This document shows, one piece after another, positions 3,050 through 38,746 of a stretch of 64,000 nt of DNA; position 1 is the stretch's first letter; each line of letters opens with the position of its first letter. The stretch is from assembly GCA_951406725.2 (NCBI GenBank), contig OX597834.1, forward strand, positions 17,050,001 through 17,114,000, written 5' to 3'. The notes under the pieces are model-generated. The model had not been told where the DNA came from. It was given only the letters and a program-made list of their open reading frames with translations, and searched no databases. The position numbers and the translations under genes are program-made. Origin of the DNA: Octopus vulgaris (taxonomy: Eukaryota).

Positions 3050-3160
3050 GTGTGGAATCTTACCAACTGCAAGCTGAAGACTAATCACCATGGACATGCT
3101 GGATTTTTGAACACTGTTACTGTTTCTCCTGATGGTTCTCTCTGTGCCTCAGGTGGCAAG
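3050..3160 (+). CDS. RACK1: RACK1 exon (111 nt): [37 protein letters not shown]
   Basis: ttctag acceptor, non-canonical donor AAG|gcaagt. Unmistakable RACK1 sequence. Confidence 0.97.
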
Positions 3161-3432
3161 GCAAGTTCATGTTCATTTTTTTTATTTATTTATTTATTTT
3201 TTTTTTACAATATATTTAAAGACTCCTGCTCTACAATTATGTATACTTCACAATACAATACCATTATTTGACCTGAAAGTAAAACTGTGCCTCTGATTTG
3301 TATTTCTAGTTAGGTGATGATTTAGAGAACAGTAATATGAGAATATCTATTTCTGGGAGTTTGGAATTAATATTTTGTAACCAATATTTCTTCATAATTA
3401 CATTGATTTTATTTTTTACTTCTTTTTTTTAG

Positions 3433-3603
<171 letters not shown>

Positions 3604-3752
3604 TAATTTAGTATTGCAAAACCACAAGTTATTTAGTTTGTAGATCTATGGATTAACCTTTCTAATCCAGCTAAATGCATAATAGTTCCTGATGACTACT
3701 TACTAATTTTGTAATTCATAACTTTTATGAAATAAACTTAGGAATGTTTCTG

Positions 3753-3974
3753 TACAAGGAGGTACTGAAAGGTTCTTGGCTTCAAAGGTATTGCAAAAGG
3801 CCTGGTTGGAGGCTCAAACCTCTGAGTTCTTTTACAGGGTTTGGAAAAACTGAAGGACCACTGCAATAAGTGTGTGAATCCGAGAGGGAAATGTGTTGAG
3901 TAAAATCATAGTCAACTGATCCTCCTGTATTTTTTTTTTACACAAAGCCAGAAACTTTTCAGTATCTCTTCGTA
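3753..3974 (+). mobile_element. Mariner-derived MITE in RACK1 intron
   Basis: TA-bounded degenerate TIRs (tacaaggaggtactgaaaggttcttggc / gccagaaacttttcagtatctcttcgta). Internal KCVNPRGKCVE* resembles a mariner transposase C-terminus. Sister copy at 34218-34427. Confidence 0.75.
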
Positions 3975-4369
3975 TATCAAGTTCCTCTCTCTCTCTTGAA
4001 ATAATGAATTACCCTCTGCATAGATAGTGTTTCTTGTGTGTACAGTTATATGTACAACTGCTGTAGGTGGGTTGAGAGCTCCTTGTAAAGTATCAACATC
4101 CAGCATATTTCCACTGCAGTAGTGTAATTACTACTGTACTTATCAGTATTACTGGTTATAATATACAGAGCAAATGTAAAAAATGTTCCTCTGTTGAACT
4201 GCTGTGACTCAGCATCCAATTGCACTTAGAACACCCACTGCAGAAGTTGCAATTAACCACAATGGTGAAATGTTTGTAGGGAATATATATGAACTTATGC
4301 TTGTTGTTATATTTTTTTCCGGTGTATATATATAAATACATGTGAATTATTTTATTTTTCTGATTGCAG

Positions 4370-4543
4370 GATCTTGAAGGCAAAAATGTTGTTGATGAGC
4401 TTCGTCCAGAAGTTATTACCCAAAGTACAAAGTCACAACCCAACTGTATGTCTTTGGCTTGGTCTGCTGATGGTCAAACATTGTTTGCTGGTTACACAGA
4501 TAATAATATCCGTGTCTGGCAAGTGTCTACTGCCGCTCGCTGA
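4370..4543 (+). CDS. RACK1: RACK1 last coding exon: [15 protein letters not shown]...[30 protein letters not shown]
   Basis: ttgcag acceptor, 58 codons to TGA, canonical RACK1 C-terminus. Confidence 0.97.
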
Positions 4544-4595
4544 ACAATTTAAAATCACCCTAAAATGCATGATAGTGGCTGTTCAGATTAATATC

Positions 4596-4601
4596 AATAA
4601 A
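4596..4601 (+). terminator. RACK1 polyadenylation signal AATAAA
   Basis: About 53 nt after the stop codon, followed by GT/T-rich sequence near 4630-4650. Confidence 0.7.
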
Positions 4602-6834
4602 ATGTCTAAAAAAAAGTGGAACTTATCATGTTTGTTACTGTTATTTTTAATATAATCTGTCAGTTTAGATCAGTATCAACCAGGGTCCTTGGCGGACCAC
4701 ATAAGGTTTTTTCTGTTAAAATTCATGTGCAATAAATTTCTACAATGCAAGAAATATTTAAAAAAAAATTTTTTTCAACAATTCTTAATAATATTGTTGC
4801 AAAATGTAGCCTCCTGACACCAACACGATTCCAGCAGCTGGGAAGATGCAGGCCAGCCTAGCAAGTCATATTGCTTAGAGCGAAAGAAGTAGTCATACAC
4901 AGCTAGATGTCTTGTGAAATGTAGTTCTTTGCTGCCCGGGTTCACACTGACTAGTTTTTCCTTTCCCAGGTTTACATCACCAATTGACACCGCACATTCC
5001 CATGCCAATTTAAATTGTCCACCTCAGAAAAACACAAAAACCATGCAGCATGCTTTAAATTGGTGACACTAACATTATTTTTCAACGAATTAAGAATCCA
5101 TTATTTGTAGAACTAGAGACAGCAGTCTTATTTCCATACCATTTAAACCGGCCAAAAGTATTCTGCTTGTTTTATGTTCAAACTGGCCAGATCTAGTCTC
5201 TCACACCAACCCTACAATATTGTTTTAAAAATTAACAGCTACCTCTTTAAAATATCTTAGCTACAAGATAATGCCTGATTAGTTCAAAATAATGTGGATC
5301 AAAAAGGATTAATTGTGGCAGAATAATGTGAACACTAAATGGTTAGATTTATAAGAATATTTCTTCCATTTGCTGCAAATAGTTGACTTTATATTCTTTC
5401 GTGACAATATTATAAAAATATATGGGACTTTTAAACATTGACTGTTTGCCTGGATCCAGTAGAGTAAGCAAAAAAATGGTTGATAAACACTGGTTTAGAT
5501 GGTTAACACTCCAACTTGAAATGTTTGAATATTCCAATAAAGTAGATTTTTACTTACAAAAGCCTGACTACATTTAGATATATTGCTCAGTATGGGAAAT
5601 GGGTGTTAAATGATGAAGATGTAGGCACAAGTGTGGCTGAAGTTTGCTTCCTAACATTGGTCAGTTGGATCTACAGGCTTTTGAACTCAAGGAACTATGG
5701 CTCCAGGCAGTTTGCTGTATTTGAAAAGACCTGTCAACTTAAGTAAAAGCATGGTTGCCCTTGCATGCAGGCTTGTCCCATGCAATCCTCTCCTGCTGAG
5801 CATTCCTAATCTAGTAGGTGCCAGTGCCACGTAAAAGGCACCCAGTATACACACCAAAGTGGTTGGCATTAGGAAGGGCATCCAGATGTGGAAACCATGA
5901 TAAAACCGATGTAGGCTCAACAGCCCTTCAGCTGGTTAGCTGCTGTCAAACAGTCTGAACCTTGCCTGCGTGAAAGCTGGACATTAAATGATGGTCCACA
6001 GAAACTGGGAAATGTGTGTGTGGGCTCGTTTTGATATTACATAATGGTTAATGAACATGATTGTTTTCAGCCTTCTATGAAAGACGTCTGATCAGAGAGG
6101 AAATATTACCTAGCTTGTCAACAGGTTAGGCAACTGGCTGTAGGAAAATCTGCCTCAAGAAATTGACCCATGCAAGCATGAAGAAGACAGCCAATGACAA
6201 TATAAATCAGATGCAGCTGTGTGATGAAGTTTGCTCTTGGGTCCAAGCACACTTTGGTACTTTGGCAAACCCCTGGACGACCAAAGCCTTGGAAGTGGAT
6301 TTCACAGACAAGCTAAGAAGCCCATCATATATGTGTGTTACTGTCTTCTTGTCTTGGCTTAATGTAATGGTTGTTAAACAGATGTTGCCATCTTGCAATT
6401 GGTATCCCTCGTTTCCAATCTTCCGTGAAAACATGTCTGGTCATGGGTAAATATTGTCTTACTTGGAAATGGGTGAGGGTTGGCAACAAGGACATCAGGC
6501 TGAAGAGAAATTTGCCTCAACAAATTCTATCTGATCCATACAAACATGGAAAAGTGGACATCAAGTGATTATATATAGTAGAAGATACTATTCCATAGTA
6601 CACGTTTCTTTACCAATTGATGTTACAGTGGTATACATATAGGAAAACAACAACTCGTCAAATAGAGAATTAAAATATAGTCCCAGTACTAAATGTATTT
6701 TCAACTCATGTGGATCCTAACATCTACAGATATATCAACTTGGAAAACGAATCTACATATGTGCTTCGTGAGGGCACAGCTTGGACTATAACTCTATGTG
6801 ACATCTTAGGCAATTCTCCTCCACTATATCCTTG

Positions 6835-30959: not shown

Positions 30960-31305
30960 GTTGTTAGACAGGCAATTATCGAAATAGTCTGTTCTCCTAT
31001 TATCTATTGCCAGATGGTCAGTTGTCAAGCTGTCTGCTACCAGGTGATCTGTTGCCAAATGGTCTTTTACTAGATAGCCTGTTGTCAAATTATCAGTTGC
31101 TAGATGGTTTTCTGTTATATGGTTTGTTGTTAAATTGTCTATTGCCTGATAGTCAGTTATCAAAGTGACCGTTACCAGATAGCCTGTGGTCAAATTGTCA
31201 GTTGCCAGATAGTGCGCTGTCAAACTGGCTGTTGTTAAATTGCCATCAAACAGTCAATTGTTAGACTATATACTGTCGGGTGGTTTGTTTGTTGTCAGAT
31301 TATCT
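30960..31305 (-). repeat. Degenerate 15-bp tandem repeat (reads as ATDHL/TTDNL pentapeptides)
   Basis: More than 15 units resembling gcaactgaccatctg on the minus strand. Confidence 0.8.
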
Positions 31306-33643: not shown

Positions 33644-33779
33644 CTGCCTCAGTTCATAGTAGTCATTGAGCATCTGTTTAGCCCATTCAAGAAGCCCTAA
33701 AGCATCAGCTGGAACACTGTTGTTGAGCTCATTTTTATTCAAAAGTCCAAGGACCCTACACAGTTGGTTGATTACACCC
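33644..33779 (-). CDS. TM-protein gene exon 9: GVINQLCRVLGLLNKNELNNSVPADALGLLEWAKQMLNDYYELRQ
   Basis: ttttcctccag acceptor (phase 2), CAG|gtcagt donor (phase 0), amphipathic helical sequence. Confidence 0.88.
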
Positions 33780-33886
33780 CTGGAGGAAAATAACAAAAAA
33801 AAAAAAAGAAAAAAAGAGCCACATATAAATTTACACAATAGATATAAATTTACAGGTGATGATGTATATATATATATATATATATA

Positions 33887-34063
33887 TAGTTAATCCAAAC
33901 AAGAACGCACAAAAAAACACAACAACGCAAGGATGTGGAACAAATATAGTATTATTGGACGCTCAGGAAAGAAGGAAAGAAGGAGGGTTTAACGTTTCGA
34001 GCGGAGCTCTTCATCGGAAACATAGGAGAAGGGAAGACAGAGGAAAGAAAATCGCCAACGGTA
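33887..34063 (-). mobile_element. Penelope-type terminal fragment with a minimal hammerhead motif at 33987-34021
   Basis: Minus strand reads GTTT-CCGATGA-A-GAGC TCC GCTC-GAAAC-GTT-AAAC. Second copy at 56793-57000. Confidence 0.65.
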
Positions 34064-34217
34064 TAGCGGTTCGGCAAAAGAGGCCGATAGAATAAGTACT
34101 GGGCTTACAAAGAATAAGTCCCGGGGTCGATTTGCTCGACTAAAGGCGGTGCTCCAGCATGGCCGCAGTCAAATGACTGAAACAAGTAAAAGAGTAAAGA
34201 GTATATATGTGCAAATA

Positions 34218-34427
34218 TACGAGGGGGTGCTGAAAAGTTCCTGGCTTTAAGATTGTCGTAAAAAGCCTGATTGGAGCCTCAACCTTCCAAATTCTTTTAC
34301 AGGGCTAAGAAAAACTGCCATAAGTGTGTGAATCTGAGAGGGGAATATGTTGAATAAAATCATAATTAACTGATCCCCTGTATTTTCTTATTTTCAAAAA
34401 GCCAGGAACTTTCTAGCACCCCTCATA
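34218..34427 (+). mobile_element. Mariner-derived MITE, with an extra right end at about 34479-34545
   Basis: tacgagggggtgctgaaaagttcctggc ... gccaggaactttctagcacccctcata. Confidence 0.75.
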
Positions 34428-34999
34428 AAATCCCGTTGCATAGCACCTTCAGCAAGCATCTTTGGTAGATGGAAACTATTTAATTAACTGATCCGCCTGT
34501 ATTTTCTTTTACCCAAAACCAGGAACCTTACAGCACCCCCTCGTATACGGTTGTTATATTTTGCTTGTTTCAGTCATTGGACTGCGCTCATTCTGGAGCA
34601 TCACATTGTACTTATTTTATTGATCCCAGAAGGATGAAAGGCAAAGTCAACTTCGGCAGAATTTGAACTCAGATCATCAAGGTAGATGAAATACAACCAA
34701 GCAATTCGCCTGGCATGCTAACAATTCTGCCAGCTCGCCACCTTTGCATACATACATACCTACATACACAGTAAAAATATAGAAAATACAGAAGTAAAAT
34801 TAATTAACATTCATTCATAGAAGAATGAGATTAACACAATGGAAACGTTTTTATAATGGAAGTAAAAAAAAAAGGGAATTGGATTTTAAAAAAGCAATCA
34901 TAAAGATAAAGAACAGGAGTTTTCTGAAAGAATTTAGAGTAGGAAGCACATGATAATAGCAGAAATAGTTGGTGAGTGTAAAGGAATTAATGTACATAC

Positions 35000-35168
35000 T
35001 TGTAAGTAGGTACTCGTGTATCATCTGAATTCATAGCTCGCAAACGTGTCCGCACCTGACTTAGCAACTCTTCTAGGGTTTTTTTGTGAGGTCGCATTTT
35101 CTCGAGTTTGTAAAAGTAGACTTGTTCATCAATGACGCAGCTATCTGAAATGTTGACCTCTTCCGTTT
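35000..35168 (-). CDS. TM-protein gene exon 8: ETEEVNISDSCVIDEQVYFYKLEKMRPHKKTLEELLSQVRTRLRAMNSDDTRVPTYK
   Basis: First AG after the pyrimidine tract (caccag, phase 1) and AA|gtatgt donor (phase 2). Both phases fit the neighbouring exons. Confidence 0.82.
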
Positions 35169-36290
35169 CTGGTGAGTTCGTAGTTGCATTGGTGTCGGAG
35201 TTGTTGTCGTCGTTGTCGTCGTCGGTGGTGGTGGTGGTGGTGGTGGTGGTGGTAGTGGCGGCGGCGGCAGCAGCGGTGGTGGTTGTGGTGGGGGTGGTGG
35301 CGGCGGTGGTGGTGGTGGTTGTAGTAGTGGTGGTTGAAGAAGCCGACGTGATTGCAGAAAAAGGGAGAGAAAAAAAATGAGGAAGAAATAAAAGTGTAAA
35401 GGTAAGATGAAAGTAGCAAAGAACTTCTTTCCATTGTTGAAGGATTTTTTTCCCCTTTCTTTTTGCTTCTAACAAGAAAAAGATTCACAATATAAAAATT
35501 TTGAAGGTCAAAGAGGCCAGTGTGATTGAAGATAGATAGATAGATAGAAAGATAGAGAATATATTTTCATTAATGCACCTGGTGTTAAAACACCTGAAAG
35601 TCATAAGCATGGCCTATACACACACTAGCAAAACCTACCTTGTGTATATGTGTTCAATATCGTTTATATCCCTTGAGTTACTTCTAATATATATTTGAAT
35701 TTTTTTCTGTGGTATAAAATGTTGGGACATACCAGCAGATGGTTCTTACACTCTTTTGCATTTAGTTGTAGACAGTGATTTAGCTTGCATTGGGCCTTGT
35801 CCAGGCATGTGGTGTTGACAAGTCACAACAAACACGAAACATCAATATCCATTGCTTCTGAATAGAACCTGATGCAAGTTATCTCCCTTGTCAATGACTT
35901 CCAGATGTTTCGACACCAGGTGCATTGATGAGAATATATTCTCTTACGCTGATAAGCACAGCCTACCCATGAACTAGCAAAACACACACCTTGTGTAGGT
36001 GTGTCCAATATTGCACACACAGATATATATATGTATAAGATACAAGGATTTTTCATCAAGGTGACTCAAAATAATAGGTATGAGCTCTGAGTGCTTAAGT
36101 TGGCATGCCATTAACATTCCGGTTTCAACTGCAGTTGAAAATGTGATTTTGTATTTGAATAGCTGAGATATCCTAGAAACAGCTGTTGGAGACTATCAAA
36201 CCTTTCACTATATAGCTACATTAAATGTCCTTGTCAAGTCTTGCTAAACTGTTTGCCTTTTTTTTTCTGCTTTAATCAATCAATCAATCA

Positions 36291-36326
<36 letters not shown>

Positions 36327-36331
36327 GTCTG

Positions 36332-36362
<31 letters not shown>

Positions 36363-36375
36363 CTCTCTCTCTCTC

Positions 36376-36423
<48 letters not shown>

Positions 36424-36696
36424 CATACATATATATACAGATAAATAGATAGATAGATAGAGAGAGAGAATGAAGGAGAAATAAATAAATGTGTGAAGGT
36501 TAGATAAGTGTTACAAGAAAGCACCTTTCATCATTGTCGTATTTTTCTCCTCTTTTTGTATATCTATGACCATATGTTTATTGCCAGTGGACCTTCCTTT
36601 TTTTTCAGTGGGCAGAGTGTGAGTGTGATTTAAAGGAGGCATGACTGCTATTTCTACTAAGCCAAGGTTCTCTCACTGGTTTGATATTAAATTAGA

Positions 36697-37163
36697 CTGC
36701 GTAACAAAATTTTAATTTTGTCTTCGGTCGGTAAGTGTTATTTCCTATTTGTTTCCATCTAGAAATCAAAGGAAATGACAACCATTCCCTTCAAACTTTG
36801 CTTTTCTGACCTGGACATCAATGTTTTCAAACTGACCTATTTTCCATTACATTTCAGACAGATTCAGTGCTGAGATGCTGAAGCAGAAATATCATTATAG
36901 CAAATATTCTGCTGAACACCATAAATCTGCTTATTGGTTGCTTGACCATAACCATTTGAGTATGTCGCTTAGCGGCTGATCTCTGATCATGAGCAGGAGT
37001 AATAGGGGAACATCACAGCCATGTGTTGAAAGGGATTCTTAGGAATTTGAATAAATGTAATAAAAGCAAAGTTTGAAGGAAATATTAGCCTTTTCATACT
37101 TTCTAGGGTAAGCACATAGGAAATAACAGTTGCAACCCAAGGACAAAAATCGTGTTACACAGC
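36697..37163. mobile_element. MITE-like element with imperfect TIRs of about 110 bp
   Basis: Left arm ctgcgtaac...tgttatttcctat...ccttcaaactttgctttt is mirrored by aaaagcaaagtttgaagg...ataggaaataaca...gttacacag. Confidence 0.65.
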
Positions 37164-37466
37164 GTTATAATGTCTACTGGTAATGGAGGCATTCATGATC
37201 ATAAGATTGCGTTTTCAATTCCTGGACCAGGCAATGCTTTGTGTTCTTGAGCAAAGCACTTCATTCCACGATGAGTAATCCTCTGACGAACTGGTATTCT
37301 GCCCAGGTAGTGGGGATGAAATAGCTGCCACAGAATCCGGTAAACCTGCCTTACGAGTCTAAAGCTCAGGAAGGAACCTTTAACTGGTAATGAAGAAAGA
37401 AGACAAATATTGATTTTTTTTTTTTTTGCAATTATTGGATTTAAATATTTCTGTAGAAATACTTAC

Positions 37467-37494
37467 CATAGCCCTTATTGTCGAACACTGGTAT
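37467..37494 (-). CDS. TM-protein gene exon 7, 28-nt microexon: IPVFDNKGY(E)
   Basis: tctttctattttcag acceptor, G|gtaagt donor. Supplies exactly the phase 0 to 1 bridge needed between exons 6 and 8. Confidence 0.8.
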
Positions 37495-37615
37495 CTGAAA
37501 ATAGAAAGACAGACACATGTCTAATTAACAAAAATTCAGAACAATTATGTATGCGTGTGTGTGTATGCGTATCAATCAATCTATCTGTACGTACATACAT
37601 ATATATCGAAATAGG

Positions 37616-37922
37616 AGGCGCAATGGCCCAGTGGTTAGGGCAGCGGACTCGAGGTCATAGGATCGTGGTTTCGATTCCCAGACCAGGTGTTGTGAGTGTT
37701 TATTGAGCGAAAACACCTCAATCTCCAAGAGGCTCCGGCAGGGAGTGGTGGTGATCCCTGCTGTACTCTTTTACCACAATTTTCTCTCACTCTTTCTTCT
37801 GTTGGCCTACTCGCTTTGCCAGTGGGGTGGCGTCATTCGAAGGCTAAACCAACGCGAAATGCAATGTGACCAGCGATGTGTAGCAACATCTGATGGCCTG
37901 GTCGGTCACGTGATCACGTGAT
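37616..37922 (+). mobile_element. tRNA-derived SINE family C
   Basis: A box ggcgcaatggcccagtggttagg and B-box-like ggtttcgattccc. Relatives at about 49730-50035, 60576-60880, 61018-61380 and 63746-64000. Confidence 0.75.
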
Positions 37923-38347
37923 ACTAAAATAATGATTGGGCTGTTAAAGACCTATTGCAAGAAATGCTTTTATTTTGAGTCATTGGACTGCGGCCATGCT
38001 AGGGCAGCACCTTGAGGTTTTTTTGTCAAGCAAGTCAACCAAGTACTTGTAATTTTTTTTAAAGCCTGGTACTTATTCTATCTGCTTCTTTTTGTTGTGC
38101 CACTCAGTTATGGGAACATAAACAAACCAACACTGGTTGTTAAGTGGTGATGGTGGACAAACTTAAAGGCATGCATGCACACACACATACACACATAGGA
38201 TGGGCCTCTTTCAGTTTCCATCAACTAAATCCACTTACAAGGCTTTGGTTGGTCAGAGGTTAAAATAGAAGACAACCGCCCAAGATGCCACACAATCTAG
38301 AACCATATGGTTGGGAAGCAAAATTCTTGCCACATAGCCACACCTGT

Positions 38348-38384
<37 letters not shown>

Positions 38385-38682
38385 CACACACATACACAAA
38401 ACGTGTATGATGGGCTTCTTTCTGTTGCTGCCAACCAAATCCATGTAAAATGTTTTAGTTGTCCCAAGGCTATAGTAGAAGACACTTGTCCAAAATGCTT
38501 TGCAGTGGGACTGAACCTGGAATCATGTGGTTGGGAAGCAACTATTGTTTATGAAATGCATAATATAAGTTTGAAAAAAAAAAATTCAATAAAGAATATC
38601 TTTAAAATAAATCCATGAAATACACCAATTTAGAAACTTCTCAAAAAATGCAAACTTCTAGAGGAAAAAAAAAATGGCTTAC

Positions 38683-38746
38683 CTTCCTAATTTTTTCATT
38701 TGGAAGATGTCTGCTTTTTAGGTTTTCTTGAAAGTTTGCACTTTGC
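38683..38746 (-). CDS. TM-protein gene exon 6: (K)QSANFQENLKSRHLPNEKIRK
   Basis: aacag acceptor (phase 2), AAG|gtaagc donor (phase 0). The only open frame is the required one. Confidence 0.72.

What the first reader, a model, noticed from the sequence alone, without database searches (positions are those of the whole stretch)
35169..35423. 253-nt AG-free zone with an in-frame latent CAA acceptor: distant branch point or editing-created splice site
Seen: on the minus strand there is no AG from 35423 down to 35171. The strong pyrimidine tract (about 35355-35400) ends TTTTTCTGCAA|TC, a perfect acceptor except AA for AG, and the first real AG lies 183 nt downstream. Splicing at the CAA (exon start 35351) keeps phase 1 and would add 61 in-frame residues (Thr/Ala runs, then DDDNDDNNSD). 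Established: long AG-exclusion zones mark distant branch points, A-to-I editing of AA to AI creates an acceptor in mammalian ADAR2 pre-mRNA, and coleoid cephalopods edit extensively. Inference: a possible editing-controlled exon extension. Caveats: being in frame has a 1-in-3 chance, ACC-type repeats naturally lack AG and stops, and I found no pairing partner for ADAR.
Basis: partly seen in the sequence, partly recalled or inferred. Interest (0 to 1): 0.7.

Follow-up and report, generated by a model that had tools for sequence, protein, structure and literature searches.

The report
Microsatellite-displaced splice acceptor in octopus
In an octopus membrane-protein gene a triplet repeat separates an intron's pyrimidine tract from its splice acceptor; assemblies of likely RNA runs join the exons at the distant normal AG, show no edited base at the proposed site and still carry this intron, and a rare TG acceptor beside the tract is likely used as a minor alternative.

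Summary
The 253-nt AG-free zone is real, but the editing idea is not supported. The gene encodes an uncharacterised mollusc single-pass membrane protein. The AG at 35170-35169 is joined to the upstream exon in 3 of 3 likely-RNA runs laid, and 4 of 4 runs show no other letter at 35352. No ADAR pairing partner beat controls. The AG form is the only one in 11 of 12 aligned homologues. The exception is RefSeq O. sinensis isoform X1. It carries the extension, but on the window it maps to a GT..TG intron with exon start 35354, not to the CAA site. One run's intron contig ends exactly where that TG junction would merge; two others run on unbroken. The pyrimidine tract and five branch motifs lie 210-240 nt upstream of the AG, behind an unstructured ACC/GCC/GAC repeat. 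The intron's 3' part is in the RNA contigs while the next intron is not. Best reading: a distant-branch-point intron, likely made by microsatellite growth and slow to splice, with a probable minor TG acceptor 186 nt from the AG. The TG junction itself was not seen.

The parts
37467..37494 (-). 28-nt upstream coding exon (residues 187-195 of P0001), phase-1 donor GTAAGT follows
   Evidence: exon mapping; its sequence is the loose end at 35169 in 3 of 3 likely-RNA runs
35357..35423 (-). polypyrimidine tract with candidate branch adenosines at 35408, 35403, 35397, 35389, 35378 (24-54 nt before the TG, 210-240 nt before the AG)
   Evidence: motif scan; branch use is inferred, not mapped
35355..35356 (-). 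candidate non-canonical TG acceptor (exon start 35354), preceded by C and 20 of 20 pyrimidines; in frame, adds 62 codons
   Evidence: only placement with a GT donor that gives the junction peptide of RefSeq isoform P0002; contig end at about 35327 in run X14
35352..35353 (-).
35169..35354 (-). 186-nt spacer: compound ACC/GCC/GAC/AAC triplet microsatellite, no AG until its last two bases, largely unpaired; intron in the main form, exon extension in the long form
35169..35170 (-). used AG acceptor (exon start 35168) without an adjacent pyrimidine tract
   Evidence: junction contigs in 3 of 3 likely-RNA runs
35000..35168 (-). conserved coding exon (residues 196-252 of P0001), spliced to the next exon at 33779

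Best explanation
This intron end has its pyrimidine tract and predicted branch point about 210-240 nt upstream of the AG that is used, likely because a triplet microsatellite grew between them, and it likely splices slowly and sometimes joins the exon at a TG right after the tract instead. Shown: the AG junction, the displaced tract, the AG-free unstructured spacer, intron sequence in RNA-run contigs whose next intron is absent, and a RefSeq long isoform that maps to the TG. Inferred: U2AF/U2 bind the tract and branch near 35378-35408; the second step scans 186 nt to the first AG; the weak distant AG delays splicing, so retained transcripts build up (they would stop 9 codons into the intron); the TG at the normal acceptor position is a minor second-step target and adds about 60 Thr/Ala/Asp/Asn residues to the cytoplasmic juxtamembrane linker.
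For: AG junction in 3 of 3 likely-RNA runs. AG form in 11 of 12 aligned homologues across cephalopods, bivalves, gastropods and a chiton and in 3 more near-full-length ones. Tract 20/20 pyrimidines before the TG against 10/20 before the AG; the only yUnAy motif in the spacer is 5 nt from the AG. Spacer mean unpaired probability 0.86 in the repeat, fold z-score -0.21. Intron contigs at depth 4-21 in 3 of 3 runs against 0 in the next intron; human introns with distal branch points tend to splice after their neighbour (PMC5378181, passages). TG use: P0002 (3 RefSeq accessions) maps to GT..TG; the base at 35356 is unchanged in 4 of 4 runs from two organism labels; the X14 intron contig ends at about 35327, the merge point predicted for that junction, and the same arithmetic gives 35140 for the AG junction, seen in 3 of 3 runs. 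A 91% match of the GAC/AAC part lies in a compound microsatellite elsewhere in the genome.
Against: The TG junction was not seen directly. The laying tool places nothing inside the triplet repeat, which leaves about ten letters on the exon side, and donor-side contigs were not examined. In 2 of 3 RNA runs (X4, X7) the intron contig runs unbroken past the predicted merge point. The X14 contig has depth about 4, its other end (about 35511) is unexplained, and a heterozygous change at 35326 would end it at the same place. The O. sinensis reference base at this site is unknown and could be an AG; RefSeq XP models are predictions. Human TG acceptors were all within 28 nt of an AG (PMC2374985). X7's junction contig has no branch at the donor, which simple retention would predict. 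Run types are the tool's guesses, depth is a poor measure of level, and the runs were chosen for holding this stretch. No branch point was mapped, and no other species' intron was seen, so repeat growth as origin is inferred. A search for short proteins carrying the long junction found 0 of 37 candidates.
Confidence: 0.55

Rival explanations
1. Distant branch point with the AG as the only real acceptor in the window's species. The RefSeq long isoform comes from an AG allele in the O. sinensis reference or is an annotation artefact, and the TG is never used.
For: No merge at the TG site in X4 and X7. Only 1 of 12 aligned proteins has the insert. RefSeq-based TG candidates in human had a high false-positive rate, with SNPs masking an AG among the causes (PMC2374985, passage). 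The distance is far beyond the 28-nt limit.
Against: T at 35356 in 4 of 4 runs, including both runs of the second organism label. The X14 contig ends at the predicted base. An AG directly after a 20/20 tract should dominate, yet the same species also has the short isoform X2; this last point is inference.
Confidence: 0.29
2. The AG-free zone is a by-product of the repeat. Splicing uses a weak nearby branch, and the intronic RNA comes from an intronic start site or an antisense transcript rather than from delayed splicing.
For: Triplet shuffles stay AG-free in 15% of cases. A similar tract-plus-ACC run lies after the stop codon at 30557-30372. X7 has intron contigs but no donor-side branch. Contigs give no strand or start.
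Against: No tract and no usable yUnAy motif within 200 nt of the AG. X4 and X14 junction contigs are 59 nt, which implies a second path out of the donor. The intronic contigs join the exon and stop being covered at its 3' end.
Confidence: 0.13
3. ADAR edits the A at 35352 to inosine and creates an acceptor at 35351.
For: GT-AA introns edited to GT-AG exist in human (PMC4176328, passages). The site is in frame after a strong tract. Contigs cannot exclude editing of a few percent. Table S3 of PMC9699675 lists 0.45% 'AtoG?' junctions for O. vulgaris reads mapped on the O. sinensis reference.
Against: No other letter at 35352 in 3 of 3 RNA-run contigs that cover it as unspliced sequence. The base is predicted unpaired (0.86) and no partner beat controls in the part of the pre-mRNA searched. 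No contig ends at 35322-35323, where this junction would merge. The annotated long isoform reads Ala-Ile after the Tyr, not Val. The same paper found 0 such junctions in O. bimaculoides and concludes they are very rare.
Confidence: 0.03

Closest known systems
Distant-branch-point exons with long AG exclusion zones (Gooding 2006, PMC1431707; passages read)
   Same: Long AG-free zone with tract and branch motifs at its 5' end and the first AG used; 165 of 67,334 human exons have a zone of 150 nt or more.
   Different: The spacer here is a polymorphic triplet microsatellite (62 codons in the window, 59 in P0002), not a conserved regulatory element; the branch is not mapped; 3 of this gene's 9 mapped acceptors have zones over 150 nt, so long zones may be common in octopus.
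Distal branch points that delay splicing (Taggart 2017, PMC5378181; passages read)
   Same: The intron is still present when the downstream intron is gone.
   Different: There a second branch in the usual zone often exists and exon skipping follows; here no proximal motif is usable and no skipping was tested.
TG alternative acceptors in U2 introns, e.g. GNAS (Szafranski 2007, PMC2374985; passages and section 12 read; FlyBase lists 23 GT-TG introns, PMC4528330, passages)
   Same: GT donor, pyrimidine at -3, alternative to an AG acceptor of the same intron, in-frame change.
   Different: Distance to the AG is 186 nt against a reported limit of 28 nt (their EST screen looked to 36 nt); +1 is C, not a purine. 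Parada 2014 (PMC4176328, sections 20 and 25) reports that 24% of human non-canonical sites are constitutive, so dependence on a near AG is not absolute.
Editing-created acceptors (ADARB1/ADAR2, NRK, HOOK3, COG8; PMC4176328 Table 2)
   Same: A genomic AA after a pyrimidine tract, upstream of a canonical AG.
   Different: No A-to-G signal, no duplex and no junction found here.

Membership tests
Distant-branch-point intron | AG exclusion zone of 100-150 nt or more before a used AG | tested here: met
   253 nt; AG used in 3 of 3 likely-RNA runs
Distant-branch-point intron | Branch motif and tract at the 5' end of the zone, none near the AG | tested here: met
   five yUnAy motifs at 35378-35408; one 5 nt from the AG; 3 T of 20 before the AG
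Distant-branch-point intron | Branch mapped by lariat reads or mutation | not testable with these tools
   only assembled contigs were available for the holders
U2-type TG alternative acceptor | Genomic TG with no AG allele, GT donor | tested here: inconclusive
   TG in the window and in 4 of 4 laid runs; O. sinensis reference base not seen
U2-type TG alternative acceptor | Transcript junction at the TG in independent reads | tested here: inconclusive
   RefSeq model maps there; contig end fits in 1 of 3 RNA runs; junction sequence not seen
U2-type TG alternative acceptor | AG partner within 28 nt | tested here: not met
   186 nt to the next AG downstream, about 68 nt to the one upstream
Editing-created acceptor (ADAR2 type) | A-to-G difference in RNA but not DNA at the AA | tested here: not met
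   0 of 3 RNA-run contig sets differ at 35352; low-level editing is not excluded
Editing-created acceptor (ADAR2 type) | Double-stranded structure around the target A | tested here: not met
   best duplex -27.6 kcal/mol, 16 of 44 controls as low or lower; A unpaired 0.86; 33644-38746 searched except the first 100 nt of this intron
Editing-created acceptor (ADAR2 type) | Junction at the edited site | tested here: inconclusive

The most novel reading that the evidence does not exclude
A microsatellite pushed the ancestral AG 186 nt away from its tract, and the U2 spliceosome now ligates at a bare TG in the normal acceptor position, far beyond the 28-nt limit reported for TG acceptors. The repeat becomes a length-polymorphic, in-frame exon extension that splits a mollusc-wide tyrosine motif in the cytoplasmic tail. 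It would be a natural case of TG use without a nearby AG, and of a new coding segment born from a repeat through a non-canonical acceptor.
Probability: 0.45. Interest if true: 0.55.

Novelty: new member of a known kind. Interest (0 to 1): 0.3.

Why it matters
As a distant-branch-point intron it is one more member of a known class, with a plausible recent origin by repeat growth. If the TG junction holds up, it tests the proposal that TG acceptors need an AG within 28 nt, and it gives a simple minigene in which TG use, scanning to the far AG and retention can be measured against repeat length. It is not evidence for editing-controlled splicing in cephalopods.

Tried and rejected
Editing at 35352: no signal, no duplex. 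Assembly error or AG allele at 35352 or 35356 in the laid runs: none in 4 of 4. Exon shortening by loss of an upstream AG: rejected, because homologues from chiton to argonaut have no insert. Asp/Asn run as a sign of coding selection: rejected, a similar run lies in a compound microsatellite on another contig. Other placements of the P0002 junction give TG..TC or GG..CT intron ends. Naming the protein: 0 Pfam families for P0001 at E up to 1, no usable Atlas hit, 3 PDB hits with E 0.39-0.88. Short proteins with the long junction: 0 of 37 candidates. The isoform annotation in supplement 1 of PMC9699675 was held as only 100 characters of text, so its long-read isoforms at this locus are unseen and may bear on the TG claim. 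Paper searches for a distant TG/UG acceptor gave 2 irrelevant papers and 0 papers; some searches were read as listings. Earlier scan notes: 0 near this place, 0 by words, 8 of 106 shown by genome, none on this locus.

Full report
Observation. On the minus strand no AG occurs from 35423 to 35171; the next AG is 35170-35169. The tract, the CAA and the in-frame 61 codons are as described. The length is not rare in this genome: 18 AG-free runs of 253 nt or more in 508 kb of strand sequence, 15 of them dinucleotide-repeat-rich. The spacer stays AG-free in 15% of triplet shuffles and has no stop in any frame. The displaced tract is the unusual part: 3 T in the 20 nt before this AG against 11-16 at the 8 other acceptors mapped in the gene.

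The gene. The window encodes residues 33-462 of P0001, an O. vulgaris predicted protein, in ten exons on the minus strand; residues 1-32 were not mapped. It has a Cys-rich N-terminal part, one hydrophobic segment and a conserved cytoplasmic region. No family name was found. The intron falls in a juxtamembrane motif, [FY]-[DE]-N-x-x-[YF] followed by Glu in most homologues. Of 12 aligned proteins from octopods, bivalves, gastropods and a chiton, 11 have no insert here. Three more near-full-length hits agree (6 of the 14 hits were fetched, 4 were seen earlier, 4 long multi-stretch hits were left). Three short unnamed ORFs begin in intron-like sequence just before this exon, one with a Phe/Leu run that suggests a T-rich tract next to the AG; this is inference from protein alone. 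The AG at 35168 is therefore the ancestral acceptor and the spacer is intron-derived.

RNA evidence. Of 24 runs listed, 14 hold half or more of the words of 34900-35500; 7 of these are guessed to be RNA and hold 0.75-0.86. The exon plus upstream intron make up 0.835 of the stretch, the exon alone 0.283. Four runs were laid: X4, X7, X14 (RNA by guess, three studies, two organism labels) and X6 (DNA by guess). In 3 of 3 RNA runs a contig joins the 28-nt exon to 35168, and the exon's far end is joined to the next exon. The next intron has depth 0 in all three and 41.9 in X6, which serves as the silent control. All three also have contigs across the intron-exon boundary (depth 18.4, 20.6, 5.7, against 19.3, 16.8, 9.5 for the spliced junction) and through the tract (13.6, 9.2, 4.0). 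The tool warns that depth is a poor measure of level and that holders are chosen for holding the stretch. No run shows another letter at 35352 or 35356. Contigs drop rare variants, so low editing is not excluded.

The long isoform. RefSeq O. sinensis isoform X1 (P0002, three accessions) carries a 59-residue version of the extension; isoform X2 is the short form. After the Tyr it reads Ala-Ile-Thr. On the window, three placements give this peptide, and only one keeps a GT donor: exon start 35354 after TG. That TG follows C and 20 of 20 pyrimidines, with yUnAy motifs 24-54 nt upstream, which is the usual acceptor geometry. Whether the O. sinensis reference has TG or AG there could not be seen, and it is not shown that either coded organism is that species.

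Contig-end test. In a graph of 31-letter words, a contig running down the intron ends 29 bases after the first base shared with an incoming junction. This predicts 35140 for the AG junction, seen in 3 of 3 runs; 35327 for the TG junction; 35322-35323 for the CAA junction. Counting unlaid letters without indels, the intron contigs end at about 35327 (X14), 35294 (X4), 35292 (X7) and 35308 (X6, DNA). One of three RNA runs fits the TG to the base, none fits the CAA, and two pass both. Against over-reading: X14's contig is shallow, its other end is unexplained, and a heterozygous change at the start of the repeat would end it at the same place. Junction contigs of 59 nt in X4 and X14 imply a second path out of the donor (retention or another acceptor); X7 has none.

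Editing. The best duplex for 41 nt around 35352 within 33644-38746 (first 100 nt of the intron left out) is -27.6 kcal/mol; 16 of 44 control sites do as well or better; the A is unpaired with probability 0.86. The region folds no better than shuffles (z -0.21). [quoted passage not shown] Its isoform file could not be read.

Mechanism. Shown: AG use, displaced tract, unstructured AG-free spacer, intron sequence in RNA-run contigs. From established knowledge: long AG-free zones mark distant branch points, with scanning to the first AG (PMC1431707, passages), and such introns tend to splice after their neighbours (PMC5378181, passages). Inferred: the branch lies at 35378-35408; the far AG is found slowly, so unspliced transcripts persist and would stop 9 codons into the intron; the TG at the normal position is an occasional second-step target. 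The spacer looks like ordinary octopus compound repeat: its GAC/AAC part matches a microsatellite on another contig at 91% over 44-46 nt, and its length differs by 3 codons between the window and P0002. The long form would insert about 60 low-complexity residues between the Tyr and the Glu of the conserved motif. That the motif resembles tyrosine-based sorting signals is recalled, not tested.

Comparison and novelty. The intron meets two of three features of the distant-branch class; the third needs lariat data. It fails the editing-acceptor tests that could be run. As a TG acceptor it would lie 186 nt from its AG, against a 28-nt limit in human (PMC2374985, section 12). Later work found constitutive non-canonical sites (PMC4176328) and 1 of 23 fly GT-TG introns without a similar alternative (PMC4528330), so this would stretch a rule rather than break new ground. 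Searches found no paper on a distant TG acceptor; the library lacks most subscription journals.

Verdict. Observation confirmed; editing reading not supported (0.03); distant branch with minor TG use 0.55; distant branch with AG only 0.29; repeat by-product with another source of intronic RNA 0.13. Interest 0.3.

Noticed in passing
window 33961-33782 and 30832-30660, minus strand: Two more acceptors of this gene have AG-free zones of 180 and 173 nt, but with a normal tract next to the AG; 3 of 9 mapped acceptors exceed 150 nt, far above the human rate.
   Followed up: partly
window 30557-30372, minus strand: Just after the stop codon, a T-rich tract followed by C-rich and ACC repeats forms a 186-nt AG-free run with a layout like the finding; no splice role checked.
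   Followed up: no
L002 about 5240-5560, minus strand: A 326-nt AG-free run with a 20/20 pyrimidine tract 289 nt before the closing AG, the only other run with this layout in 508 kb; gene context unknown.
   Followed up: partly
window 3050-4655, plus strand: ORF pieces resemble WD40-repeat exons of a RACK1-like gene (name recalled from the peptide, no search run).
   Followed up: no
window 30960-31250, minus strand: Degenerate 30-nt tandem repeat (periods 15 and 30) in the last intron, with an open frame of 107 codons.
   Followed up: no
window 59604-59421, minus strand: 184-nt AG-free pyrimidine-rich run ending in TTTCAG; may be an acceptor of an unmapped 5' exon of this gene.
   Followed up: no
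P0001 residues 196-297 and the last 12 residues: A cytoplasmic segment and a C-terminal motif are strongly conserved across molluscs but match no Pfam family or solved structure; the protein family is uncharacterised.
   Followed up: partly
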